Below are positions 1-40,633 of a stretch of DNA of 40,633 bases, piece by piece. This stretch comes from a virus. The notes beneath the pieces are model-generated. The model ran no database searches. It was not told the DNA's origin and saw only the letters and a list, made by a program, of their open reading frames with translations. Each line of letters starts with the position of its first letter. Position 1 is the stretch's first letter. Position numbers and translations under genes: made by a program. The DNA lies in the UHGV virus genome UHGV-0140992, one strand, 5' to 3'.

Positions 1-1427
1 AAGCACCAGTCAACAATGCTGTGCTTCTGAAAAAGATGATTGGCAAGGATAGTAAGGTCGTTCCCCTGATAGCCGTCAACATCGAATGAGTAGGCCAGAT
101 CACGGACAACACTGCCTTTCTCCTGGACGAACAGAGCAATATTCGCCACGGCAATTGGTGGGACATTGCTCGAGCCATTTGATCCCTGAGAGCTGAATGC
201 AAATGATGATGGGGTAAGCACTTTGTTCTGGTCGCCAGTGATGACGTACTCACCTCCGGAAGTCAGCGCCACCAGCGAACCAACATCAATCAGGTGACGG
301 ATCTCATTAACCTGACGCCCGGCATAGGTGTAGATAATTCTGTCGTCATCCTGCGTAGGATTGCTTTTGCCAAAATCCTTATAATCCCCAGTACGGCTGG
401 CCCAGATAGTCTGAGGGAACGCAGTCGATGCGGCGAAGTAAAGACGCTGTTGATAATAAACAACAGTGCCAGGATAACCATTAACACTGTTCCAGGCATA
501 TTTAGCCCATTTATAGCTGGCATTATCCTCGCCAACGACCTGCGAAGGGATATAGGAAATCACCTCGGCAGTTGCAGTAGTGCCATTTGCAGCAGTGATA
601 CGGGCAATGCCAAAACCACTGTGCAGATACTCCCACTCAATGCCAGTATCATCATCACCGGATCCGCCCCAGCCATCCCATGATGTGCCTTCTGTATGCG
701 AAGGGCGCAAAGTACCTGTTTTGCCTGCTGTAACGGCGCGATAGTAGTTACTGTCTGCACGGCGAATATCGCCAATCGACGTACTCTTACTGGTTTCCCA
801 TACAGGTACTGAATCCACTGCAGGCTGTTCCAGATAGAACAATTTGCCTACCTGCTCCGCGCCAAAAATAGAGACGCTTGCCGTTAACGTAATTGTCCCG
901 GTGCTGGCGCTGGCATAAACCGTCACTGACTCATCAATATTGATATCTTCAAATGGCCCGTTCTTCGTTACCACATCAACCAGTTGCCAGTTGTCATGCG
1001 CATAGCGACGCAACTCTTTCGGCGGGTATGCCGGATGAACAAGCGTAAGCACGTCTGCGCTTTGCGTGAATTTAATTCGGAACAGATCGGCTTCAGTATA
1101 TGGCGTGGCAATTTCATAAATAACATTGCTGCTGTTCAGCACCAACGCACCATCTTTGATAACGCGCATGTACTGGTGTCCGAACTCCAGAGCATAGGTC
1201 TGAACCGTCGAGAACTGGAACGGGATCAGGCGGCATTTCCGATTTGGGTATTTGGCGGCACCGACAAAACGCGTACCAGGTCGATTCTCAACGCCGCCAT
1301 ACTGCCGCACGATAAAGTTATCGCACTTGCGCAATGCCACCTGGTACTTCGCCATGTCGATACGTCCGTACAACGACGGTCCAATCTCACCACCAGCAAA
1401 GCTGGGCTGGATCCAACTGATAGCCAT
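1..1427 (-). CDS. tail tubular protein B-like (T7 gp12-like), N-terminal ~475 codons; gene runs off the window start and resumes in frame at the window end
   Basis: ATG at 1427-1425 overlaps the upstream stop (ATGA); manual minus-strand translation 1427->3 is stop-free (MAISWIQPSFAGGEIGPSLYGRIDMAKYQ...); N-terminus resembles T7 gp12; follows a gp11-like gene. Confidence 0.55.
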   Translation of the reverse strand, partial: MAISWIQPSFAGGEIGPSLYGRIDMAKYQVALRKCDNFIVRQYGGVENRPGTRFVGAAKYPNRKCRLIPFQFSTVQTYALEFGHQYMRVIKDGALVLNSSNVIYEIATPYTEADLFRIKFTQSADVLTLVHPAYPPKELRRYAHDNWQLVDVVTKNGPFEDINIDESVTVYASASTGTITLTASVSIFGAEQVGKLFYLEQPAVDSVPVWETSKSTSIGDIRRADSNYYRAVTAGKTGTLRPSHTEGTSWDGWGGSGDDDTGIEWEYLHSGFGIARITAANGTTATAEVISYIPSQVVGEDNASYKWAKYAWNSVNGYPGTVVYYQQRLYFAASTAFPQTIWASRTGDYKDFGKSNPTQDDDRIIYTYAGRQVNEIRHLIDVGSLVALTSGGEYVITGDQNKVLTPSSFAFSSQGSNGSSNVPPIAVANIALFVQEKGSVVRDLAYSFDVDGYQGNDLTILANHLFQKHSIVDWC

Positions 1428-3204: not shown

Positions 3205-3224
3205 GTGGGTCTGTTACGACCCAC
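3205..3224 (-). other. stem-loop directly downstream of the capsid gene
   Basis: gtgggtc-tgttac-gacccac, 7-bp stem, about 17 nt after the capsid stop; no U-run. Confidence 0.3.
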
Positions 3225-3240
3225 AGGTTAATAACAGGCG

Positions 3241-7133: not shown

Positions 7134-7223
7134 ATCAATGACTCCGTACGCAATTAAATTATTACCAATTTAACCACATATGATTTATTTATCGTAGGTA
7201 GTTGACATTTAACGCACAAATTA

Positions 7224-7238
7224 TTACCTTTCAGGTAA
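7224..7238. promoter_or_regulatory. TTACCTTTCAGGTAA, operator-type inverted repeat (TTACC-N5-GGTAA family)
   Basis: perfect 5-bp half-sites; same 15-mer recurs at 28399; TTGACA hexamer about 20 bp upstream. Confidence 0.45.
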
Positions 7239-7560
7239 CCAAAGAGTTCATTCCGGTTACTAACCTGACTGGCTTGTCGTTAAATTGAACAGGTGGAGTG
7301 AGCTTTTATTTTGAGCAGTACGGCGTATGGCACATGCGCCGATAGCGGTCTGGATACGTTTAAGGGGCACCCTCCCTTGCTCGGGCAAACGAACCAGGTA
7401 GCCGGAATGTGCAAGTCGAGCGGTTTTATTCCGCGCACGGGGATTCACCATCCCGGCGATTCGGTGTGACGCCTCGGAAGAGACGAGGGTACAACGATGA
7501 GAGCATTTATGGAGCCGCGACAAAGTGTGGCGCCTTAACAGGCTAAGTGCTCTCAGCGTT

Positions 7561-7637
7561 GTGGCATTAGCTCAGTTGGACAGAGCAACCGCCTTCTAAG
7601 CGGTTGGTCGCAGGTTCGAATCCTGCATGCCACGCCA
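7561..7637 (+). tRNA. tRNA-Arg (anticodon TCT)
   Basis: cloverleaf folded by hand: acceptor GTGGCAT/ATGCCAC, D-arm GCTC..GAGC, anticodon stem ACCGC/GCGGT with loop CTTCTAA, T-arm GCAGG-TTCGAAT-CCTGC, discriminator G plus CCA; close to E. coli argU. Confidence 0.85.
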
Positions 7638-7750: not shown

Positions 7751-7770
7751 TGCTGTAAACCAGTACAGCC
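7751..7770 (+). promoter_or_regulatory. weak LexA-box-like site (CTGT-N8-ACAG)
   Basis: TGCTGTAAACCAGTACAGCC about 70 bp upstream of the 7838 ORF; spacer not AT-rich. Confidence 0.25.
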
Positions 7771-14414: not shown

Positions 14415-14417
14415 GAT

Positions 14418-14494
14418 TTACCTCTAAGGTAATTGAAAACCATATAAGACACGAAATCAATAGAGTTTAGAATATTTTGTTACCTTGTAGGTAA
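14418..14494. promoter_or_regulatory. two operator-type sites TTACCTCTAAGGTAA (14418..14432) and TTACCTTGTAGGTAA (14480..14494)
   Basis: perfect half-sites, 62 bp apart, between the P-like gene end and the DUF1064 gene start. Confidence 0.45.
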
Positions 14495-14503
14495 TTGTTG
14501 AGG

Positions 14504-16718: not shown

Positions 16719-16781
16719 TCACCCATAAGGTAACAAAAATCAAGGATAGTTACCTATGAGGTGCATTTACCTGTTGGGTAA
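16719..16781. promoter_or_regulatory. OR-like operator cluster: TCACCCATAAGGTAA (16719), TTACCTATGAGGTGC (16750), TTACCTGTTGGGTAA (16767)
   Basis: three 15-bp inverted repeats at 31- and 17-bp spacing between divergent Cro-like and CI-like genes. Confidence 0.6.
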
Positions 16782-16836
16782 TATTGCTTTAAATTGAATC
16801 ATCTACTGATTCATATATGAGGCGATTTTCCAGAAA

Positions 16837-17421
16837 ATGAAAAGTATCCAGGACGTCCGCAGGCAAAATCTCAACGACTTGATCGACCGTGAATTCAATG
16901 GTGTTCAGACGCGGATGGCAGAAAAACTTGGAACTCAGGCAAATCTGGTAAACCGCTGGGCTCTTGGCAAGAAGGTTATCGGCGACCAGGTTGCACGAAA
17001 AATTGAAGCTGCCGCCAATAAACCCCGTAACTGGCTTGATATTGATCGTTCGCTTTCTCAGGAGGGTTTTCAGCCTGTCGGCCCGAGCGATATAGGTCAG
17101 CTGGCGGCTCACAACCTGGAACGCTGGATGAGCGAAAGCCGCGACCTTTCAACACAGGGAAAACTTCACCGCGCATCCGGCGTCGCCCAGGTGACAATCA
17201 GCCGCCTGTTAAACAATGAGGTCAGCGTTTCCATTTCCACCCTGGAGAATGTTGCATCCGCATTCGGGCGTCACGGATATGAACTACTGATTCACCCGCA
17301 CGACCCTGCGACTATCAACTATGACCGCTCACGCTACGCATTGTTACCCGAAACCGAGAAAGCAAAGATCGAAAGTTACATTGAATTTGTCATCAACCAG
17401 AACGAAAAAAGCAAACAATAA
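16837..17421 (+). CDS. CI-like immunity repressor, 194 aa, two HTH-like segments, no S24 peptidase domain
   Basis: divergent from the Cro-like gene across the operators; HTH-type N-terminus; no Ala-Gly / GDSM / Lys autocleavage motifs seen. Confidence 0.7.
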   Translation: MKSIQDVRRQNLNDLIDREFNGVQTRMAEKLGTQANLVNRWALGKKVIGDQVARKIEAAANKPRNWLDIDRSLSQEGFQPVGPSDIGQLAAHNLERWMSESRDLSTQGKLHRASGVAQVTISRLLNNEVSVSISTLENVASAFGRHGYELLIHPHDPATINYDRSRYALLPETEKAKIESYIEFVINQNEKSKQ

Positions 17422-17467: not shown

Positions 17468-17478
17468 TGCCAGATAGA

Positions 17479-17555
17479 TTACCTTACGGGTAATTTTTTT
17501 AACTCATATCTATTGACACCAAACCAAATAAGCATAATTATTACCCCAACGGTAA
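17479..17555. promoter_or_regulatory. OL-like operators TTACCTTACGGGTAA (17479) and TTACCCCAACGGTAA (17541) around a TTGACA hexamer
   Basis: two perfect sites flanking TTGACA at 17513, upstream of the plus-strand operon. Confidence 0.55.
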
Positions 17556-17574
17556 CAGACCGAGGTAACAAGTT

Positions 17575-22753: not shown

Positions 22754-22795
22754 AATTCACCCGTATAGAAACCATTTTCATGACGGTATGAGAGT

Positions 22796-22810
22796 ATACC
22801 TTTAAGGTAA
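22796..22810. promoter_or_regulatory. operator-type site ATACCTTTAAGGTAA (one mismatch)
   Basis: about 45 bp upstream of the integrase start. Confidence 0.4.
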
Positions 22811-23043
22811 TACCGTCACCTGTACCGACGAAAAATATGGTGTATAGTGAATAGAAATGAATACATAAAAACAAAAACCCTCTGTTTTTACAGAGGGTTA
22901 AATTAGTATCTGAATAGGAATGAGTTGCTATGAGTTAGCTGTTAATCATTCCCACTCAATTATTTACGATAACCATAACCAATTGAGTGATAACATTTTT
23001 CCAAATCTCAATTTTTCCCGTACCGTTTTATATACCGTCACCG
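22811..23043. other. candidate attP region with direct repeats TACCGTCACC (about 22811 and 23034) and GTACCG
   Basis: non-coding region next to int; repeated 10-mers about 220 bp apart; 9-bp inverted repeat cactcaatt ... aattgagtg around 22950-22990. Confidence 0.3.
22866..22899 (-). terminator. intrinsic terminator at the end of the late/lysis operon
   Basis: aaccctctg-ttttta-cagagggtt 9-bp stem followed by TTTTTGTTTTT on the minus strand. Confidence 0.6.
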
Positions 23044-25149: not shown

Positions 25150-25178
25150 CCCGCAAAATATTGCGGGCTTTTTTTTAA
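25150..25178 (+). terminator. plus-strand intrinsic terminator abutting the tailspike stop
   Basis: cccgcaa-aata-ttgcggg followed by CTTTTTTTTAA; U-run only on the plus strand. Confidence 0.45.
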
Positions 25179-28100
25179 CGTTCTTCCAGAGACTGAATCC
25201 GCTCTTTTATCTTATCCATTTCTCTGCGCTGCCATGCTGCCTCGATATAGAATAAGAGATCAGGTCTGACCCCCCATCTAGATCCTGCTGGCGTTATTTC
25301 AACGCGCTCAATGATGTCTTCCATTACCATCACTGGATTATCATCCTCATCAACAATGATGCTCCCGTCATTATCAGTCAGCGGCATTTCCCTTTGGCCA
25401 GTAATGACGTCATCATATACTGCGGGATAATCGTCATAGCAAAGAAAGGCATAGCGGCATGTTGTGCTTTCTTCTTCCATGAGTCCGTGAGAAATAAGAA
25501 CATCACGAAGTTGCTGCGCGATTACACCATGATGTATCCTCGCCCCTTCTTCCCCCTTTATAGCGACAGCGTTCAGCCATTTATAAGCGATATACCTGAC
25601 GTCACCCCAGGCATCCAGCAATGCTTCGTCAGGAGAGACCGGCTCTGTCTTTAATGTTCCGTCACTGGTAACCACAGGATTGGAGCCAAGATAAACTGTC
25701 GAGAACCTGTTTCCCGGACCACCAAGAGCATTTACATTATCAAGATAAGGTTTAACATCTCCGTTCTCAAAAAGATGTTCGAGTGCGTTATATACCGCGC
25801 GACGTGGAGTACTGCTTCCGGAACCATGCAACGTTATCATTGCACCATCTGCTGAAGACGTTATTTCACCGCCGCTAACGATTAATCTCTGAGCGGTAAC
25901 ATCATCAGACGGTACTTTCTTCGCAATAATGGCGTAATTACCCTCAAGTTTGACTTCCGCGCGAACTTGTCCTGATGTACCTGCATGGACAGTCAGTGAC
26001 TGGACGGCAACATCATCTGTGAAATCAACGGGTACAGGAACCGTCCTCACGCCTGACGTCGACATAAAAGTAGGAAGCGTTCTGTTAGGAGTGGCTCCGT
26101 AGACAAAATCCCTTGAAACAAATTCTTCCTGTTTAATTTTCACCCTGAAACAATACAAATCAGCCGGGTGACCATCGTGAACATAAGGATATTTTCTGTT
26201 GTTATCCCCTATGCTCCATGGGTTTAGAAAGTCTTCCCCACCGAAAATGTAGTACAGCCAGTTGTCTTTGATACAAACTGAACCAACACCAACTGCAGAG
26301 TTAACTATTCCGCCCTGATAAATCTGATCAGTAACATTAACCCACTCTACATTATCCAGACTCCACTCATTGACGTTAACTCTGGTCATAAATGTTCTTG
26401 GATAATTTCCTGCATAACGGTTATCAGGTTCTCCTCCTTCCCACTCACCAAATGCGCGCTCACTGCCAAAAATAATCAGCTCATCGCCAACTTTGGCAAA
26501 AGGAAGGTTTGAGTGATGAACATTATTTGGGAAGCGAAGAGAATTCCATGATGTACCTAAATCAGAGCTTCTGTGCAATGAACTACCGGGTTGAGTACTT
26601 AATGTCCCCCTGGTCGTCAGATACAGAATGCCATCATAATATTTTACACATGGCTCAGATGCATTCGCCTCATATTCTGCAGGTATGCGTCTGCGAACAA
26701 AGCTACCAGGAGAACCGAAAGCATCAGAGAAATAGAGTATCCCAAGCTCGCGTGGACCAATATCACCATTATGGTAGCCAACAGCAAAACTGTTATCGCT
26801 AATCGTCGCAAAACTGTGAATCTCAGTAACAGGAGTGCTTCCGTCAACAAAAGAAGGAATAGTTCCAAGACTGGTTTTTCTCCATGGTGACGAGTGAAAT
26901 GATGTACCAAAACTCCAGTATCTACCCTCGTTATTCTGATCCACATCCTGGGTATTTTGCGTCGTAACTGTAAAAGTATTTTTATCAATAACAGTAGTCA
27001 CCGTCATATTCCCGGTAACACCTGTAACACCAGAGTTTGAGAAGTTGACAAAATCACCAGCAAATAATCCGTGATCAGTAATGCGAATATAAGCGACTTG
27101 CTGATTTGCTGCTTTCGTTATACCACCATAAGCGCGAAGGCTGCGACTCATTGGGCGATCCCACAACTCTGCAACCTGCAGTTTATTTCCGCTCACGGTC
27201 CGCGTCTCAATTACAGCAAAAAGGCGATTTCTGACAACCCCCATACTCATGCAGTGATAGTTAACTGTGGGATAGTTTTCATGTAAATCTGTAAGCCATT
27301 CCGGCGTTGTCCAGGTCTTCCCGTCATCTCCTGAGCGAACCCATGCAACATGGAGGTTATTTACACCATGGCGGTCTCCAGCCATAAAAGGCGCATAGAT
27401 GACATTGTCATATACAAACGTTTTATCCTGCGTCCAGGCGTTGTACCACGGTGTATCTGTAATTTTAAATAACTCTCCCTGGATAAAATCTTCAGAAGCA
27501 TAAAAAAGAGGCTGGCCCGGTATTCTCTCAAATAAAAAACGAGCATTTTTAAATCGACTGACATCCGGAAGAGTTGATACTTTAAAAGTAAGCCCTAATC
27601 CGTCAATTTTATAACCTGGAGATGAGGCTTCAAGGCACGCGCTTATTGCAGTGGAATCGTCATTTATACCATCACCAACAGCTCCAAAATCTTTGGGGCT
27701 AATAGCATCACGCATTTTATCCTGGAACGTTCGGTACACAGCCCCAGAACCATACTGAATAAACCAACCAAAACCACCAACAACCCCGGCGATTGCAGCA
27801 TCGACATAATTACGCATTGAGCGATTATTTACAGCGTCCTGCTCAAATGATGGATCTGCAAGGTTAGAAATTTTGTTTTGCTTTGCATCGTAATATTTTG
27901 CAAGCAAAGATGGTTTCATCAATGCACGTCTGAACCACCCAAAACATTGCTGGATCAGCATCGTCAGGTAGTCAAAGGCATCTTCATGCACTTCGGGGAA
28001 AAATTTTCCCTGATTGCGAAGGTCTGTCTCCTGCACTACATCAAGCACACGATCTATCGTAATTCGCCATCCAGTAGCAAGCGGAGACGGAAGAACCACA

Positions 28101-28294
28101 GAACCGCCACTATAAGTGCCCGCCCCAGTTACCGTATAACCGGTATCCAGAACCAATTCTGTTACGTTTCCGTTCAGGTCAGACACCTGAACAACCAGGT
28201 CTGATTTTCTGAAAATTCGAAAAGTATACGGAAACGATGTCGTAACGCCGTTACCGGTGTATTCGTTGTGGTCAACTTCGGTTGAGACCGTCAT
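25175..28294 (-). CDS. tailspike endo-N-acetylneuraminidase (K1 endosialidase) with C-terminal intramolecular chaperone domain, 1039 aa
   Basis: long blocks match recalled phage K1F endosialidase (FERIPGQPLFYASEDFIQGELFKITDTPWYNAW ... EWLTDLHENYPTVNYHCMSMGV); chaperone-domain motifs (LGSNPVVTS, TEPV, DAWGDV) near the C-terminus. Confidence 0.85.
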   Translation of the reverse strand: MTVSTEVDHNEYTGNGVTTSFPYTFRIFRKSDLVVQVSDLNGNVTELVLDTGYTVTGAGTYSGGSVVLPSPLATGWRITIDRVLDVVQETDLRNQGKFFPEVHEDAFDYLTMLIQQCFGWFRRALMKPSLLAKYYDAKQNKISNLADPSFEQDAVNNRSMRNYVDAAIAGVVGGFGWFIQYGSGAVYRTFQDKMRDAISPKDFGAVGDGINDDSTAISACLEASSPGYKIDGLGLTFKVSTLPDVSRFKNARFLFERIPGQPLFYASEDFIQGELFKITDTPWYNAWTQDKTFVYDNVIYAPFMAGDRHGVNNLHVAWVRSGDDGKTWTTPEWLTDLHENYPTVNYHCMSMGVVRNRLFAVIETRTVSGNKLQVAELWDRPMSRSLRAYGGITKAANQQVAYIRITDHGLFAGDFVNFSNSGVTGVTGNMTVTTVIDKNTFTVTTQNTQDVDQNNEGRYWSFGTSFHSSPWRKTSLGTIPSFVDGSTPVTEIHSFATISDNSFAVGYHNGDIGPRELGILYFSDAFGSPGSFVRRRIPAEYEANASEPCVKYYDGILYLTTRGTLSTQPGSSLHRSSDLGTSWNSLRFPNNVHHSNLPFAKVGDELIIFGSERAFGEWEGGEPDNRYAGNYPRTFMTRVNVNEWSLDNVEWVNVTDQIYQGGIVNSAVGVGSVCIKDNWLYYIFGGEDFLNPWSIGDNNRKYPYVHDGHPADLYCFRVKIKQEEFVSRDFVYGATPNRTLPTFMSTSGVRTVPVPVDFTDDVAVQSLTVHAGTSGQVRAEVKLEGNYAIIAKKVPSDDVTAQRLIVSGGEITSSADGAMITLHGSGSSTPRRAVYNALEHLFENGDVKPYLDNVNALGGPGNRFSTVYLGSNPVVTSDGTLKTEPVSPDEALLDAWGDVRYIAYKWLNAVAIKGEEGARIHHGVIAQQLRDVLISHGLMEEESTTCRYAFLCYDDYPAVYDDVITGQREMPLTDNDGSIIVDEDDNPVMVMEDIIERVEITPAGSRWGVRPDLLFYIEAAWQRREMDKIKERIQSLEER

Positions 28295-28398
28295 GTTAAA
28301 TCTCCAGATAGTCGCAGCACCCGTTGCGCCGCATATCTGGTTATTCTATTACCTGGAAAACCACATATGGATAGAAAGGATGTAAATACGAATAGATA

Positions 28399-28413
28399 TT
28401 ACCTTTCAGGTAA
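28399..28413. promoter_or_regulatory. operator-type site TTACCTTTCAGGTAA
   Basis: identical 15-mer to 7224; in the divergent region between tailspike and the LexA-box gene. Confidence 0.45.
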
Positions 28414-28450
28414 TTTGCAAAACGTGCTGGATAGCAAACAAATTATTTGA

Positions 28451-28470
28451 TACTGTATAAATATACAGTT
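28451..28470. promoter_or_regulatory. LexA (SOS) box TACTGTATAAATATACAGTT
   Basis: 18 of 20 match to consensus TACTGTATATATATACAGTA, intact CTGT-N8-ACAG, overlaps a TATAAAT -10-like element about 20 bp before the downstream ATG. Confidence 0.65.
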
Positions 28471-28489
28471 ATTGCATGGAGAAGATAAG

Positions 28490-28747
28490 ATGCAGCAGTA
28501 TCACTATCCACTGGAAGACGGATTTACCGAAAGGATTCACACGCCGGGAGGCGTCAGGTCACTGGTGGAGGGATCGCACTTGATGAAATTACTCCGGGAT
28601 CTCGATAAGGATGGATTTAATGTCGATGGCCCACTTGCCGAACTGACTGCACTGATTAACTACGTCACCAGCTCACAGATGTCTATGCAGGATCTGCAAA
28701 CACATCTCGACTATTGTGCCGAACAATTACGAAAACAAACCCGGTAA
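28490..28747 (+). CDS. small antirepressor-like protein, 85 aa (track 28472 is TTG; ATG at 28490)
   Basis: GGAGAAG RBS; LexA box and operator upstream; about 45 percent identical by eye to the C-terminal domain of the Bro-N protein at 29896..30606. Confidence 0.55.
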   Translation: MQQYHYPLEDGFTERIHTPGGVRSLVEGSHLMKLLRDLDKDGFNVDGPLAELTALINYVTSSQMSMQDLQTHLDYCAEQLRKQTR

Positions 28748-28769
28748 ATTTAAAGGCCGCAAGAGCGGC

Positions 28770-29498
28770 CTATCGTTTCGCTTTGTGCTCGTCCCAGCAC
28801 GTTTTGCACCATGCCATTAAGCCGTCCGCATTTTGATTATTAGGGTAAAAGCTGGTCCGTTTTCTGCGGACATTACAAATTGGGCACCACTTCATATGGC
28901 GTGTATTCTTTGGGCCATCGAGACACCTTGCACACCACTTAGTCAATCCATCTGGATTTTTTGACGATTTCCGGAATTTGTCATATGGAAGGTTTATTCT
29001 GCATCGCAAACACTGCTTGCGGCCACTTGAAACTCTGTTAGCTGATTCTTCTTTTGGCGGCGATACAGAAGGTATTCTTGCTGGCTCTGATACTGCCTGA
29101 GGTGCTTTTTTAGATGACTGAGACGATATGTCATCACCAGGGAATCTTCCATGATATGCCGGACGCATTGATACTCCAGGTGGAAGCTCAGCTGTAAACG
29201 GCTTTGGCTGAATCAGTTGCCTCTCTTTTGCTAACTCCTGCTGTTTACAATATGTCTGGATTACCGCACTATCATAAGCAGGAGGTGCGGAAATATTAGG
29301 CGCATTACCTCCAGTTTTTTGAAACTGAGTAGAGGTGTGTTCTATCACCTGTGTACGATTAATCGTTATCTCCCCATCTTCGGTCTTTATCGTTTTGTTA
29401 TGATTAACGACCGTACGATCAGAGATCTTAGTCTTGTTCTGGTTGATAACGTAAATAATCACCGCAACCACACCAACAACTATCCAGAAAACTTCCAT
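28770..29498 (-). CDS. membrane-anchored protein with duplicated CxxC zinc-ribbon module, 242 aa
   Basis: N-terminal TM helix; two copies of CxxC-x(20)-DGL-xx-WC-xx-C; GAGGAA RBS. Confidence 0.5.
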   Translation of the reverse strand: MEVFWIVVGVVAVIIYVINQNKTKISDRTVVNHNKTIKTEDGEITINRTQVIEHTSTQFQKTGGNAPNISAPPAYDSAVIQTYCKQQELAKERQLIQPKPFTAELPPGVSMRPAYHGRFPGDDISSQSSKKAPQAVSEPARIPSVSPPKEESANRVSSGRKQCLRCRINLPYDKFRKSSKNPDGLTKWCARCLDGPKNTRHMKWCPICNVRRKRTSFYPNNQNADGLMAWCKTCWDEHKAKR

Positions 29499-29518
29499 TG
29501 CTTTTCCTCACAATAACA

Positions 29519-29626
29519 TTACCTTAAAGGTAATATCTTGCTTTCAGGTGATCAAGCGTTAAACGCCACCAACCAAATACGGTTGATTTTGATATTTCTC
29601 CGCGTTTATCATTACCTTTGCGGTAA
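29519..29626. promoter_or_regulatory. operator-type sites TTACCTTAAAGGTAA (29519..29533) and TTACCTTTGCGGTAA (29612..29626)
   Basis: perfect half-sites between the divergent 242-aa gene and the Bro-N gene. Confidence 0.45.
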
Positions 29627-29639
29627 ATTTACATCGCAC

Positions 29640-29880
29640 TCCTCTTGTGCCATAGTAATCGGGCACTGGCAAAATCCAGTGCCGGGATTGGCGTCCCGGG
29701 TTACTAAGTGGCGCATACCACGCCAGACGTGGTTTTTTTATGCGTTAAGCACAGCTATATCCGAATTATGGTGGGCTGGGCAGGGGTCCGAAAGGACGCC
29801 GGTACCACTTAGGCCGGTACGCCAACCTTGTCCAGTTCACCACCAGTAATTGGCGTTGCGGTGGTGATTAAAATCACTAA
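29640..29880 (+). other. highly structured non-coding leader upstream of the Bro-N gene
   Basis: nested inverted repeats GGCACTGG-caaaat-CCAGTGCC and CCGGGA-ttggcg-TCCCGG; CCACG-ccaga-CGTGG followed by TTTTTTTA; direct repeat GCCGGTAC. Confidence 0.3.
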
Positions 29881-29895
29881 GTGGAGATAACCACC

Positions 29896-30606
29896 ATGGC
29901 TAATGCTCAAACTTCCATCTTCAAATTTGAATCTGTTAACCCTATCCGTTCCATCATTATCGATGGCCAACCATGGTTTGTAGCCCAAGACGTTTGTAGT
30001 GCGCTGCGTATCCAAAACGTCACCCAAGCACTTGAAAAACTGGATGATGATGAAAGGTCTATGTTCAACATAGGGCATGAACATCGTGCAATTTTTGACA
30101 GCCGAGTAAAAGAGATCAACATCATCTCCGAGTCAGGCCTCTACACACTGATCCTCCGCTGCCGCGACGCAGTGACACCAGGCACTATCCCCTACCGCTT
30201 TCGTAAATGGGTTACGGGTGAGGTTCTTCCTCAGATCCGCCGCACCGGAAGCTACATTAAAAACTCGCTCCCGCAGGAAGAACGCATAAAGATGGTTGCC
30301 GACCAGGTGGCCAACGCCACGGCGTCAGCAGTAATGCAGGCGATGAAGATAGAGAACAAAACCTACAGCGCCCCACTGAATCCCGGCTACCGCAGCCTGA
30401 TTCATTCGCCGTCTGGTGTTCTCGGCCTGACGGAGAACTCACTGCTGATGAATCTGCTGAACCAGTTACAGGACGACGGGCACGACGTATCGGGCGCGGC
30501 GGCGGAGCTGACCACCATGTTCTGCTACATCGTCGGTGTGAGCAAATGCCTGCGTGATATCCAGACCCACGCGGAATACATCAACGACAAGGCAGGGTTC
30601 TTCTGA
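29896..30606 (+). CDS. Bro-N domain antirepressor-like protein, 236 aa (ATG at 29896)
   Basis: N-terminal Bro-N-type motifs (FKFESVNPIRSIIIDGQPWFVAQDVCSAL); C-terminal domain paralogous to the 28490 gene. Confidence 0.65.
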   Translation: MANAQTSIFKFESVNPIRSIIIDGQPWFVAQDVCSALRIQNVTQALEKLDDDERSMFNIGHEHRAIFDSRVKEINIISESGLYTLILRCRDAVTPGTIPYRFRKWVTGEVLPQIRRTGSYIKNSLPQEERIKMVADQVANATASAVMQAMKIENKTYSAPLNPGYRSLIHSPSGVLGLTENSLLMNLLNQLQDDGHDVSGAAAELTTMFCYIVGVSKCLRDIQTHAEYINDKAGFF

Positions 30607-30640: not shown

Positions 30641-30678
30641 TCTGTACAGATTGCAGACTGTGGGTGAATAGCGTACTA

Positions 30679-30693
30679 TTACCTTAAAGGTAA
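30679..30693. promoter_or_regulatory. operator-type site TTACCTTAAAGGTAA
   Basis: identical to 29519; immediately before AGGAGG and the ATG at 30706. Confidence 0.45.
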
Positions 30694-30705
30694 AGGAGGC
30701 GCGAT

Positions 30706-39125: not shown

Positions 39126-39589
39126 TATTTTCTCTCCATGTGAAATCTGTGGAAATTAAGACCAAGAGCACCATAAGGCGCGGCTTCTTCAAGCCTGAAT
39201 CCAAGCCAGTGCAGCCATGCTTTGGCAACATGGTTTCGCTCGTCGACGTAGTTTTCCAGGCGCGGATAAACTGCCAGCATCTGCTGCAATACAGGGCGGC
39301 AGTGGCGAAGAAATGTCTTCTGATATTTTTCAATACGGCTGGTTCCTACCAGCCAGGGCGTACCATTGCCACCGATCATTGACGCCGGAGATACGCCAAA
39401 CATGGTTACCAGTTCTCCGTTCGCAAATCCTGACCAGGCCATAGTCGCAGTACGCAGACCAACACGCAGCGCATCTTCGGTAGTCATCAGTGATACCGCA
39501 TACAGTTCGTCAATATCAGCCTGACGAACATCCGGCAAAATCATCTGAAGATGCTCTTCGGTTGCGGGAATAATTTGAACATTGATCAT
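39125..39589 (-). CDS. virion protein, 154 aa (gp13-like position)
   Basis: position between tail tube B and internal virion proteins; stop/start overlaps. Confidence 0.4.
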   Translation of the reverse strand: MINVQIIPATEEHLQMILPDVRQADIDELYAVSLMTTEDALRVGLRTATMAWSGFANGELVTMFGVSPASMIGGNGTPWLVGTSRIEKYQKTFLRHCRPVLQQMLAVYPRLENYVDERNHVAKAWLHWLGFRLEEAAPYGALGLNFHRFHMERK

Positions 39590-40633
39590 CAGAACCCACC
39601 AACAGTAAGGCGAGGAATAACGGCAAGAACAGACAGCGGCAACGGATCAAGCTGACGGATTTTTACACGTCCGTTTTTGCCCCAGTTACTGTCCAGTTTC
39701 ACTTCTACTTTTCCGGTAGCATCATCAACAGGATCATCGTAGAACTCGAATTCACGCTGTGGATATTCGTACCATTTACCGCCGGGCGTAGTCGCCCAGA
39801 TGCCGCGACTGGCATTCACAACCAGAGTAACGGACGGGATCACCTGTTTTTTGTCCAGCAGCGTTTCCTGTCCGTTAATGTTGATATCCAGTGTTTCGAA
39901 TTCAGCAGTTATTGGCAGGCCGATGTGCACTACAGCCCCCGGTGATTCCAGCGTGACGGCACATCCGGAAACCACTTTCTGTGGTTCCACGTTCGCATCA
40001 GAGAGAATGTTTACGGTCTGGCCTTCAAGATGAGACAGGCCTCCAAATGTCCGGCGCGCCATCTGCCAGTTCGTGGTGGCCACATTCCTGAGGGATGGCG
40101 GGACGTTCCTGTTAGCACGAACCACTACAGCGGTATTGCTGGTTACAGAAATAATGTCGCAACGTAATTCTTTTGACACCTCATCGCCAGTATCAGGATC
40201 AGTTCCGGTATAAGGGAACTGTAGTTGCGCGCCGACATCACTACTGGTGAAGTACGCACCACCAGAAACACTGATTGTATATTCCGCGCGGTAATCCCAT
40301 TCGCCAGAACCACCAGTGATGATCATCGTTCTGTCAGACGTATTTCTTCCATCATAGCTAAGGCCAGAATCAACAAAGAAAGCATCTTCATCGCTGGTAA
40401 ATAAACGGCTGGACAGTCGCTCGATGTATCTCACTGTTTGCCCGTTAACGGTTCGGTTAACGACGAAATACACCGCATCTTCATTGCCTTCGCTGATACT
40501 GCATGTGCTTTCATATTTTCCGGTACTGGATTGTGGTGCCCATGCAAAAACCTGCTGATCACGCAAATAGGTCATCACCAGTAATTTACCGTCATCACGG
40601 ATGCAGAAGGCGCTGGAGTAAGGGACTATTGAG
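39589..40633 (-). CDS. tail tubular protein B-like, C-terminal part (continuation of the gene at 1..1427 across the window junction)
   Basis: frame of track ORF 39589..40578 stays open up to 40632 and joins the frame ending at position 1 through junction codon TTC; combined about 823 aa, comparable to T7 gp12 (794 aa). Confidence 0.55.
   Translation of the reverse strand, partial: SIVPYSSAFCIRDDGKLLVMTYLRDQQVFAWAPQSSTGKYESTCSISEGNEDAVYFVVNRTVNGQTVRYIERLSSRLFTSDEDAFFVDSGLSYDGRNTSDRTMIITGGSGEWDYRAEYTISVSGGAYFTSSDVGAQLQFPYTGTDPDTGDEVSKELRCDIISVTSNTAVVVRANRNVPPSLRNVATTNWQMARRTFGGLSHLEGQTVNILSDANVEPQKVVSGCAVTLESPGAVVHIGLPITAEFETLDININGQETLLDKKQVIPSVTLVVNASRGIWATTPGGKWYEYPQREFEFYDDPVDDATGKVEVKLDSNWGKNGRVKIRQLDPLPLSVLAVIPRLTVGGF

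What the first reader, a model, noticed from the sequence alone, without database searches (positions are those of the whole stretch)
28399..28747. SOS-controlled antirepressor: near-consensus LexA box in front of a small gene paralogous to the Bro-N antirepressor C-terminus
TACTGTATAAATATACAGTT (28451..28470) matches the E. coli LexA consensus at 18 of 20 positions and overlaps a -10-like TATAAAT just upstream of an 85-aa ORF with a good RBS. An operator-type site (28399) lies 38 bp further upstream. The CI-like repressor (16837..17421) shows no RecA-assisted autocleavage domain. Together this predicts induction by a LexA-derepressed antirepressor, as in phage 186 Tum, N15 AntC and the Gifsy phages, rather than by repressor cleavage. 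A weaker CTGT-N8-ACAG site sits at 7753..7768.
Basis: partly seen in the sequence, partly recalled or inferred. Interest (0 to 1): 0.8.

Follow-up and report, generated by a model that had tools for sequence, protein, structure and literature searches.

The report
LexA-controlled phage antirepressor, already characterised

Summary
TACTGTATAAATATACAGTT (28451..28470) matches the LexA consensus at 18 of 20 positions. It is the only such site in the window, it scores above every shuffled or random control, and it lies 8 bp upstream of the GGAG ribosome-binding site of an 85-aa gene (28490..28747).

The interpretation also holds, but it is not new. The window is a complete, circularly permuted genome of a phiV10/epsilon15-type (Uetakevirus) temperate phage.
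- The 85-aa protein is 88% identical to SPC32H Ant (PDB 5D50 chain E, E=4e-47).
- The 194-aa repressor is homologous to SPC32H Rep (5D50 chain A, E=3.5e-42). It has two HTH domains and no S24 domain.
- The LexA box and the upstream ATTACC-N5-GGTAAT operator are conserved across 11 related phages. SPC32N differs from SPC32H by a C-to-A change inside the box.
- Tum and N15 Ant are analogues, not homologues.

The site at 7753..7768 is at chance level.

New detail found here:
- The Bro-N paralogue (29896..30606) carries a whole Ant domain. It sits behind Rep-type operators and a P1-type C4 antisense RNA, forming a second antirepressor module that SPC32H lacks.
- Ant is far better conserved than Rep between the E. 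coli and Salmonella phages (88% against 43%).
- The locus is in about 10% of complete E. coli genomes, annotated as hypothetical.

The parts
28451..28470 (.). LexA (SOS) box TACTGTATAAATATACAGTT, 18/20 to consensus; covers both candidate -10 hexamers of the ant promoter
   Evidence: conserved in 8 of 11 Uetakevirus ant promoters, degenerate left half in the three Klebsiella phages; SPC32N carries a C->A change in the ACAG half
28428..28461 (+). Candidate ant promoter. Either -35 TGGATA (28428..28433), 17-nt spacer, extended TG (28448..28449), -10 TACTGT (28451..28456); or TAGCAA (28432..28437), 18-nt spacer, TATAAA (28456..28461)
   Evidence: Relaxed scan. TGCTGGATAG and TG-n-TAC-TGT are invariant in alignment A2. 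Phage 186 p95 is annotated with -10 = TACTGT, the first hexamer of its LexA box. The strict scan finds nothing. Inferred, not mapped.
28478..28481 (+). Shine-Dalgarno GGAG, 8 nt before the ATG
   Evidence: TGCATGGAGAAGA block conserved
28490..28747 (+). ant: 85-aa antirepressor, orthologue of SPC32H Ant
   Evidence: 88% identity to SPC32H_020 'ant: anti-repressor protein'; PDB 5D50_E E=4e-47; phrog_450 E=9e-48
28754..28771 (.). GC-rich hairpin AGGCCGC-aaga-GCGGCCT between the convergent ant gene and the 242-aa ORF; probable bidirectional terminator
   Evidence: epsilon15 annotates a terminator at the same place
28398..28414 (.). Rep-type operator ATTACCTTTCAGGTAAT between the divergent ant and tailspike genes
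   Evidence: same site in SPC32H; annotated 'protein_bind: repressor' in the epsilon15 record
28343..28371 (-). Candidate leftward tailspike promoter: -35 TCCATA (28371..28366), 17-nt spacer, -10 TAGAAT (28348..28343), with half-operator ATTACC (28349..28354) abutting the -10
   Evidence: falls in the invariant blocks ATTCTATTACC and ATATG.AT of alignment A2. Inferred.
16837..17421 (+). rep: 194-aa repressor with two HTH domains, no S24 domain; homologue of SPC32H Rep
   Evidence: PDB 5D50_A E=3.5e-42, 5D4Z_A E=3.6e-20; Pfam HTH_3 and YdaS-like HTH only; 42% identity by BLASTP to SPC32H Rep
16766..16782 (.). Rep-type operator upstream of rep
17478..17556 (.). Pair of Rep-type operators (17478..17494 and 17540..17556, centres 62 bp apart) flanking a TTGACA promoter for the rightward early operon
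   Evidence: a second pair with the same 62-bp spacing lies at 14417/14479
29896..30606 (+). Second antirepressor: Bro-N domain fused to a complete Ant domain. The mechanical ORF starts at GTG 29881; the likelier start is ATG 29896, with GGAG at 29883..29886
   Evidence: Pfam Bro-N E=1e-19; residues 155-231 match 5D50_E residues 3-79, E=3e-13; 42% identity to the small Ant; phrog_130 'anti-repressor Ant' and phrog_450
29518..29847 (+). Control region of the second antirepressor. Operators at 29518..29534 and 29611..29627; promoter-like TTGATT-18-TATCAT (29583..29612); c4-a1b1/isrK-like RNA 29650..29739 ending in a terminator; C4 antisense RNA 29764..29847
   Evidence: C4 segments CCACTTAG (29805) and CGCCAA (29820) are complementary to CTAAGTGG (29704; 29877, over the SD) and TTGGCG (29688; 29850)

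Best explanation
The region is the ant locus of a phiV10/epsilon15-type (Uetakevirus) temperate phage of E. coli. It is an SOS-gated antirepression switch orthologous to the one characterised in Salmonella phage SPC32H.

Proposed mechanism:
1. In the lysogen, host LexA sits on the 20-bp box at 28451..28470. The box covers the -10 region and probable start site of the ant promoter, so ant is silent.
2. Rep is the 194-aa repressor at 16837..17421, with two HTH domains and no autocleavage domain. It holds the lytic promoters shut through ATTACC-N5-GGTAAT operators.
3. DNA damage activates RecA, and LexA cleaves itself. Ant (85 aa) is then made.
4. An Ant tetramer binds the C-terminal domains of Rep dimers, takes the Rep tetramer apart and releases it from DNA. 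The lytic programme follows.

Shown here:
- the box and its statistical significance;
- its conservation, and its position over the candidate -10 hexamers;
- orthology of Ant and Rep to the crystallised pair;
- absence of an S24 domain;
- the shared operator motif.

Taken from the orthologue's literature, not tested in this phage:
- LexA binding;
- SOS-dependent ant transcription;
- Rep not being cleaved;
- the Ant-Rep stoichiometry and disassembly mechanism.

Inferred:
- that this phage's Ant binds its own Rep, which is only about 43% identical to SPC32H Rep;
- the exact promoter hexamers.
For: - Box present, unique and top-scoring.
- Ant is 88% identical to SPC32H Ant, which is annotated 'ant: anti-repressor protein' and crystallised with Rep in 5D50.
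- Rep is homologous over its full length to 5D50_A and 5D4Z_A, and Pfam finds only HTH domains.
- Synteny is the same in phiV10, SPC32H and epsilon15: ant lies divergent from the tailspike gene.
- In an 11-phage alignment the box, the operator, a -35-like block and the RBS are conserved islands in an otherwise diverged spacer.
- SPC32H and SPC32N differ at two positions in the 3.2 kb compared. One is C->A in the ACAG half of the box, which drops the PWM score from 25.1 to 18.4 bits. This agrees with my recollection of Kim & Ryu 2013 that a LexA-box point mutation makes Ant constitutive.
- ATTACC-N5-GGTAAT is enriched 13- to 17-fold in both the window and SPC32H, and it clusters around rep.
- Literature: PMC7380047 cites Kim & Ryu 2013 for LexA-derepressed antirepressors. 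PMC9638917 and PMC9986798 describe Rep tetramers and an Ant tetramer binding two Rep dimers.
- Uetakevirus phiV10-species prophages of E. coli were induced 21- to 47-fold by a DNA-damaging microcin (bioRxiv 10.64898/2026.05.26.727859).
Against: - Nothing has been tested in this phage.
- Rep here is only 42-43% identical to the crystallised SPC32H Rep, so the Ant-Rep contact is extrapolated.
- The strict sigma-70 scan finds no promoter in 28250..28850, and the promoter hexamers are unmapped.
- The phage has a second Ant-domain protein under different control. It could share or take over the induction role.
- The two primary papers (J Virol 2013;87:11775 and PNAS 2016;113:E2480) are not in the held library. 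Their details rest on secondary citations, database records and my memory.
Confidence: 0.9

Rival explanations
1. Dual control. ant is repressed by Rep, through the operator at 28398..28414, as well as by LexA. Ant and Rep would then form a double-negative loop gated by LexA.
For: A perfect operator sits 36 bp upstream of the box and is conserved in all 11 phages aligned. Epsilon15 annotates it as a repressor site.
Against: Its centre is about 55-60 bp upstream of the likely ant start, outside the -35/-10 region. It lies equally close to a conserved leftward promoter candidate for the tailspike gene, whose -10 abuts a half-operator. The SPC32N box mutation alone changes the phage's behaviour while the operator is unchanged (and my recollection of the paper).
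Confidence: 0.3
2. The real induction trigger in this phage is the Bro-N::Ant-domain protein (29896..30606). The small LexA-controlled Ant is auxiliary or redundant.
For: The Bro-N protein contains the entire Ant fold. It has its own promoter, Rep-type operators and C4 RNA control.
Against: It has no LexA box. SPC32H induces with the small Ant alone and lacks the Bro-N module. The small ant gene with its box is the element conserved across the genus.
Confidence: 0.08
3. The LexA box controls the divergent tailspike gene, or is a chance palindrome with no regulatory role.
For: The box is palindromic and lies in a shared 195-bp intergenic region.
Against: No match occurs in 100 shuffles, and the PWM score is above all random windows. 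The box is 19 bp from the ant ATG and 157 bp from the tailspike ATG. It is conserved across genera. A natural point mutant exists in SPC32N.
Confidence: 0.03
4. Induction proceeds by RecA-stimulated self-cleavage of the repressor, as in lambda, and the 85-aa protein does something else.
For: None found.
Against: Pfam and NCBIfam detect no Peptidase_S24 domain. Rep aligns end to end with the crystallised SPC32H Rep, which consists of HTH domains plus a tetramerisation/Ant-binding domain.
Confidence: 0.02

Closest known systems
Salmonella phage SPC32H Ant-Rep-LexA antirepression system (Kim & Ryu, J Virol 2013; Kim et al., PNAS 2016; PDB 5D50, 5D4Z)
   Same: - Same genus (Uetakevirus) and same gene order.
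- Ant is 88% identical.
- Rep is homologous over its full length.
- The LexA box is in the same place relative to the RBS.
- The same ATTACC-N5-GGTAAT operator lies upstream, and the same operator motif recurs genome-wide.
   Different: - Rep is only 42-43% identical.
- The box is closer to consensus (18/20 against 17/20).
- Ant is one residue shorter.
- The E. coli phage carries an extra block of about 2.9 kb after ant: a 242-aa ORF, a C4 RNA, the Bro-N::Ant fusion and a 193-aa ORF. SPC32H lacks this block.
Coliphage 186 Tum and its p95 promoter
   Same: - A LexA-repressed promoter drives a small antirepressor that inactivates a non-cleavable CI.
- The 186 box TACTGTATGTTTATACAGTA is identical to the epsilon15 ant box.
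- The annotated -10 of p95 is the TACTGT of the box, preceded by TG-n, as in the window.
   Different: No significant sequence similarity between Ant and Tum (E=0.061 in a single comparison). Tum is annotated as DinI-like. Different phage family (Peduoviridae) and a different repressor type.
N15 antirepressor operon (gene 30 Ant) and Gifsy/Fels-2 antirepressors (Lemire et al. 2011)
   Same: SOS-dependent antirepressors acting on non-cleavable repressors (PMC7380047).
   Different: No alignment at all between Ant and N15 gp30. The Gifsy proteins were not compared here.
P1/P7 immI (c4-icd-ant) and Gifsy-1 isrK-orf45-anrP, for the neighbouring Bro-N::Ant module only
   Same: - Rfam C4 (66 bits, gathering score 45) and isrK (67.7 bits, gathering score 50) lie upstream of an antirepressor gene.
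- There are two pairs of short complementary segments, one pair lying just upstream of the antirepressor gene with one of its segments over the SD.
- The promoter is overlapped by the main repressor's operator, as P1 ant expression is regulated by C1 (PMC8201110; PMC4825925).
   Different: - There is no icd/orf45-like coupled ORF reaching the antirepressor start; the ATG at 29768 stops after 14 codons.
- The antirepressor is a Bro-N/Ant-domain fusion, not P1 Ant1/2.

Membership tests
SPC32H-type Ant/Rep/LexA antirepression system | Small (about 86 aa) Ant protein homologous to 5D50 chain E | tested here: met
   E=4e-47 over residues 2-84; 88% identity by tblastn
SPC32H-type Ant/Rep/LexA antirepression system | Rep with an N-terminal DNA-binding domain plus a C-terminal domain (tetramerisation/Ant-binding), homologous to 5D50_A and 5D4Z_A, without a Peptidase_S24 domain | tested here: met
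   E=3.5e-42 over residues 1-190; C-terminal residues 89-190 match 5D4Z_A at E=3.6e-20; Pfam finds HTH hits only
SPC32H-type Ant/Rep/LexA antirepression system | LexA box overlapping the ant promoter | tested here: met
   The box at 28451..28470 aligns column for column with the SPC32H box and contains both candidate -10 hexamers. The promoter itself is not mapped.
SPC32H-type Ant/Rep/LexA antirepression system | ant located between the late structural operon and the tailspike gene, divergent from the tailspike gene | tested here: met
SPC32H-type Ant/Rep/LexA antirepression system | LexA binds the box; ant is induced by the SOS response | not testable with these tools
   Indirect only: Uetakevirus phiV10-species prophages are induced by a DNA-damaging microcin.
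SPC32H-type Ant/Rep/LexA antirepression system | Ant binds Rep and releases it from the operator; Rep is not cleaved | not testable with these tools
   Rep is about 43% identical to the crystallised partner. The C-terminal 30 residues are better conserved.
Phage 186 Tum family | Sequence homology to Tum (DinI-like C-terminus) | tested here: not met
   BLASTP E=0.061, 14 of 46 identities, not significant
N15 Ant (gene 30) family | Sequence homology to N15 gp30 | tested here: not met
   No alignment with E<=100
Lambda CI / LexA-type self-cleaving repressors | Peptidase_S24 domain in the repressor | tested here: not met
   No S24 hit in Pfam or NCBIfam
P1 immI-type C4 antisense control (neighbouring Bro-N::Ant gene) | C4 RNA upstream of the antirepressor gene, with complementary target segments on both sides of it, one of the downstream segments over the antirepressor's RBS | tested here: met
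   Rfam C4 66 bits (gathering score 45) and c4-a1b1 44.1 bits (gathering score 46.7, just below). Exact complements at 29805/29704/29877 and 29820/29688/29850.

The most novel reading that the evidence does not exclude
The phage runs a two-tier antirepression circuit built from one portable Rep-binding fold. The first tier is a stand-alone Ant released by LexA cleavage. The second is a Bro-N::Ant-domain fusion whose promoter is shut by Rep and whose translation is masked by a C4 antisense RNA. Once the first Ant removes Rep, the second would be expressed. It could lock in commitment through positive feedback, or act in trans on other Uetakevirus prophages. Trans action is plausible because Ant is 84-88% conserved across phages whose Reps are only about 43% identical. 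No such coupling of an SPC32H-type Ant with a P1-immI-type module was found described in the held literature.
Probability: 0.25. Interest if true: 0.45.

Novelty: already known. Interest (0 to 1): 0.2.

Why it matters
As a discovery it matters little. LexA-gated antirepression of a non-cleavable repressor in epsilon15-like podophages was established in 2013, and the Rep-Ant complex was solved in 2016.

The practical value is in annotation.
- The gene is called "hypothetical protein" in every listed RefSeq E. coli hit, and the locus is in 529 of 5426 complete genomes, many of them K1 ExPEC/APEC strains.
- PHROGs lists its family (phrog_450) as function unknown.
- NCBIfam and Pfam have no model.

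Transferring the SPC32H annotation would explain how a common E. coli prophage family senses DNA damage. The second, C4-controlled Ant-domain protein and the Ant/Rep conservation asymmetry are modest leads on prophage cross-talk.

Tried and rejected
- Primary papers. I tried to read J Virol 2013 (DOI, PMC3807360, PubMed id), PNAS 2016 (PMC4983836, DOI) and the epsilon15 genome paper (PMC2698709). None is held. I relied on citing papers, GenBank and PDB records, and memory, and have marked which is which.
- Strict sigma-70 scan of 28250..28850: no hit. I replaced it with a relaxed scan and an analogy to 186 p95.
- Second LexA site at 7753..7768: rejected as chance. It scores 9.5 bits, has a GC-rich spacer, lies in the spacer between the tRNA-Arg gene and the next ORF, and is not conserved in SPC32H or epsilon15.
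- A third LexA-like site at 788..807 (14.7 bits) lies inside a structural gene and within the range of random windows (95th percentile 15.4). Rejected.
- CTGT-N8-ACAG at 3211..3226: -1.3 bits. Rejected.
- Homology of Ant to Tum or to N15 Ant: none.
- Pfam DUF724 hit on Ant (17.6 bits against a cut-off of 38.4): ignored as spurious.
- An orf45-like ORF translationally coupled to the Bro-N gene, as in Gifsy-1: not present.
- Structure prediction was not run. At 88% identity to a crystal structure it would add nothing.

Full report
**What the window is.** The region around the finding is 95-99% identical to Escherichia phages phiV10, TL-2011b, vB_EcoP_ZX5, PAS61 and others. These belong to the genus Uetakevirus, the epsilon15-like temperate podophages. 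Joining the two ends of the window gives one uninterrupted 824-codon ORF for a gp12-like structural protein. The 40,633 bases are therefore a circularly permuted complete genome.

**Checking the observation.**
- TACTGTATAAATATACAGTT is at 28451..28470 and differs from the E. coli LexA consensus at two positions.
- The consensus with up to three mismatches hits only this site; none appeared in 100 dinucleotide shuffles.
- A position weight matrix built from 27 E. coli SOS boxes that I recalled from the literature (approximate) gives it 27.5 bits. That is higher than any training site and higher than the best site in any of 100 random windows.
- The gene starts at ATG 28490 and ends at 28747 (85 aa), with GGAG 8 nt upstream.
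- The inverted repeat ATTACCTTTCAGGTAAT is at 28398..28414.
- The 85-aa protein is 42% identical over 74 residues to the C-terminus of the Bro-N protein encoded at 29881..30606 (E=3e-15).
- The 194-aa repressor has HTH domains only.
Two need qualifying: the -10 assignment is uncertain, and the "weaker site" at 7753..7768 is at chance level (9.5 bits, not conserved).

**What it is.**
- The 85-aa protein is 88% identical to the product of SPC32H_020, annotated "ant: anti-repressor protein" in GenBank KC911856. It matches PDB 5D50 chain E, "Anti-repressor protein", at E=4e-47.
- The 194-aa repressor matches 5D50 chain A, "Repressor", over its full length (E=3.5e-42). Its C-terminal half matches 5D4Z.
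- The locus is therefore the E. coli-phage orthologue of the SPC32H Ant/Rep pair.
- According to papers I could read, SOS induction and LexA self-cleavage lead to synthesis of an antirepressor that inactivates the lytic repressor by protein-protein contact (PMC7380047, citing Kim & Ryu 2013).
- SPC32H Rep binds DNA as a tetramer, and the Ant tetramer binds two Rep dimers and breaks the tetramer (PMC9638917). The Rep C-terminal domain mediates both tetramerisation and Ant binding (PMC9986798).
- I could not obtain the two primary papers. From memory, Kim & Ryu reported three things: Rep is not cleaved during the SOS response; LexA represses ant; and SPC32N, which differs from SPC32H by two nucleotides, makes Ant constitutively because of a point mutation in the LexA box.
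- The sequences bear this out. In the 3.2 kb compared, SPC32H and SPC32N differ at two positions, and one is C->A in the ACAG half of the box. That change costs 6.7 bits in my matrix.

**Anatomy of the control region.** I aligned the ant-tailspike spacer from eleven phages of E. coli, Salmonella, Enterobacter and Klebsiella. It shows conserved islands in otherwise diverged sequence:
- ATTCTATTACC and ATATG.AT;
- the operator ATTACC-N5-GGTAA;
- TGCTGGATAG;
- the LexA box with an invariant TG two bases before it;
- the RBS.

A relaxed promoter scan gives two rightward candidates: TGGATA-17-(TG)-n-TACTGT and TAGCAA-18-TATAAA. Both place the -10 inside the box. The first matches the layout annotated for the phage 186 p95 promoter, where the -10 is the TACTGT of the LexA box and is preceded by TG-n. 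The 186 box is identical to the epsilon15 ant box.

The leftward candidate TCCATA-17-TAGAAT (28371..28343) coincides with the first two conserved islands. It would be the tailspike promoter, with a half-operator touching its -10.

The full operator at 28398..28414 lies between the two divergent promoters. Whether it serves ant, the tailspike gene or both cannot be decided from sequence.

**The operator motif.**
- ATTACC-N5-GGTAAT (up to 2 mismatches) occurs 14 times in the window against 1.06 expected, and 18 times in SPC32H against 1.04 expected.
- In both phages it clusters around rep.
- The epsilon15 record annotates these sites as "protein_bind: repressor".
- Two pairs, 14417/14479 and 17478/17540, have centres 62 bp apart. 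The second pair brackets a TTGACA promoter.
- The motif is shared although the Reps are only 43% identical. The segment NLVNRW in the first HTH is conserved.

**Family relations.**
- Ant has no significant similarity to 186 Tum and none to N15 gp30 Ant.
- Rep has no S24 domain.
- The Ant family is spread through Enterobacteriaceae: 136 clusters, almost all "hypothetical", with a few UniRef entries named "Anti-repressor protein".
- The ant locus is present in 529 of 5426 complete E. coli genomes, annotated "hypothetical protein" in every listed hit.
- PHROGs lists the family as function unknown, and NCBIfam has no model.

**Beyond the finding: a second antirepressor module.**
- Relative to SPC32H, the E. 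coli phage has an extra block after ant.
- The Bro-N protein (likely start ATG 29896) contains a complete Ant domain: residues 155-231 match 5D50_E residues 3-79, E=3e-13.
- Upstream lie two Rep-type operators (29518, 29611), the second overlapping the -10 of a TTGATT-18-TATCAT promoter.
- Next comes an isrK/c4-a1b1-like RNA ending in a terminator (29650..29739), then a C4 antisense RNA (29764..29847). Both the isrK and C4 hits are above Rfam gathering scores.
- C4 segments CCACTTAG and CGCCAA have exact complements on both sides of it: a TTGGCG/CTAAGTGG pair upstream (29688, 29704) and another downstream (29850, 29877). CTAAGTGG at 29877 overlaps the Bro-N gene's Shine-Dalgarno.
- This is the logic of P1 immI, where Ant is controlled by C1 and C4 RNA (PMC8201110). 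It is also related to Gifsy-1 isrK-orf45-anrP (PMC4825925).
- The module has no LexA box.

**Conservation asymmetry.** Between the E. coli and Salmonella phages, Ant is 84-88% identical while Rep is 43%. Ant and Rep occur in almost the same set of phage records, 35 and 37 of them. This means the Ant-Rep contact in this phage is inferred rather than shown. It also leaves room for cross-reaction between prophages, which was not tested.

**Verdict.**
- The system is already known through its SPC32H orthologue.
- Confidence in the mechanism is about 0.9. The residual doubt concerns the untested Ant-Rep pairing in this allele, the unmapped promoter, and the contribution of the second antirepressor.
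- Interest is low (0.2) as a discovery. The annotation gap and the two-module arrangement are the only points worth carrying forward.

Noticed in passing
window 29518..30606: There is a second antirepressor module. Rep-type operators and a promoter are followed by an isrK/c4-a1b1-like RNA, a C4 antisense RNA (29764..29847), and a Bro-N protein whose C-terminal 80 residues are a complete SPC32H-type Ant domain. C4 has exact complements over the gene's Shine-Dalgarno. SPC32H lacks this module.
   Followed up: partly
window 16837..17421 versus 28490..28747, compared with L012 (SPC32H): Ant is 84-88% identical between the E. coli and Salmonella Uetakeviruses, while their Reps are only about 43% identical. 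Both groups use the same ATTACC-N5-GGTAAT operator. This suggests a conserved Ant-contact surface or possible cross-induction.
   Followed up: partly
window 14417..14495, 16766..16782, 17478..17556, 7223..7239, 22795..22811, 30678..30694: There is a genome-wide set of 17-bp Rep-type operators: 14 matches against about 1 expected. Two pairs are spaced exactly 62 bp centre to centre. This would fit a tetrameric Rep bridging two sites.
   Followed up: partly
window 25175..28294 (- strand): The tailspike is a 1039-aa endosialidase with all four endosialidase Pfam domains plus the S74 chaperone. It is 99.5% identical in DNA over 77% of its length to the CUS-3 siaK1 gene, and it is joined to an epsilon15-type N-terminus. 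This is a K1-capsule-specific Uetakevirus, and the module is mosaic with a P22-like phage.
   Followed up: partly
window 7561..7637 (+): A phage-encoded tRNA-Arg (anticodon UCU) is found by both ARAGORN and Rfam. SPC32H has one at the equivalent place.
   Followed up: no
window 1..1427 and 39589..40633 (- strand): The window ends join into one 824-codon gp12-like ORF. The window is therefore a circularly permuted complete phage genome.
   Followed up: yes
window 28770..29498 (- strand): A 242-aa ORF converges on ant. It has an N-terminal hydrophobic segment and a C-terminal pair of Cys-rich zinc-ribbon-like repeats (weak Stc1, endonuclease VII-like and Lar-like hits). It belongs to phrog_6762 (function unknown) and is absent from SPC32H.
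   Followed up: no
window 28390..28750; E. coli genomes: There is an annotation gap. The ant locus is in 529 of 5426 complete E. coli genomes, including IHE3034, APEC O18 and O2:K1 strains. It is annotated "hypothetical protein" in every listed hit. PHROGs lists the family as function unknown, and Pfam and NCBIfam have no model.
   Followed up: yes
L013 9045..9064 (phage 186 p95) versus L004 (epsilon15 ant promoter): The LexA box of phage 186 p95 (TACTGTATGTTTATACAGTA) is identical to the box before epsilon15 ant and one base from the SPC32H box, although Tum and Ant are unrelated proteins.
   Followed up: no
window 788..807: TACTGGTTTCCCATACAGGT is the second-best LexA-matrix hit (14.7 bits). 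It lies inside the gp12-like structural gene and within the range reached by random sequence, so it is probably chance.
   Followed up: partly
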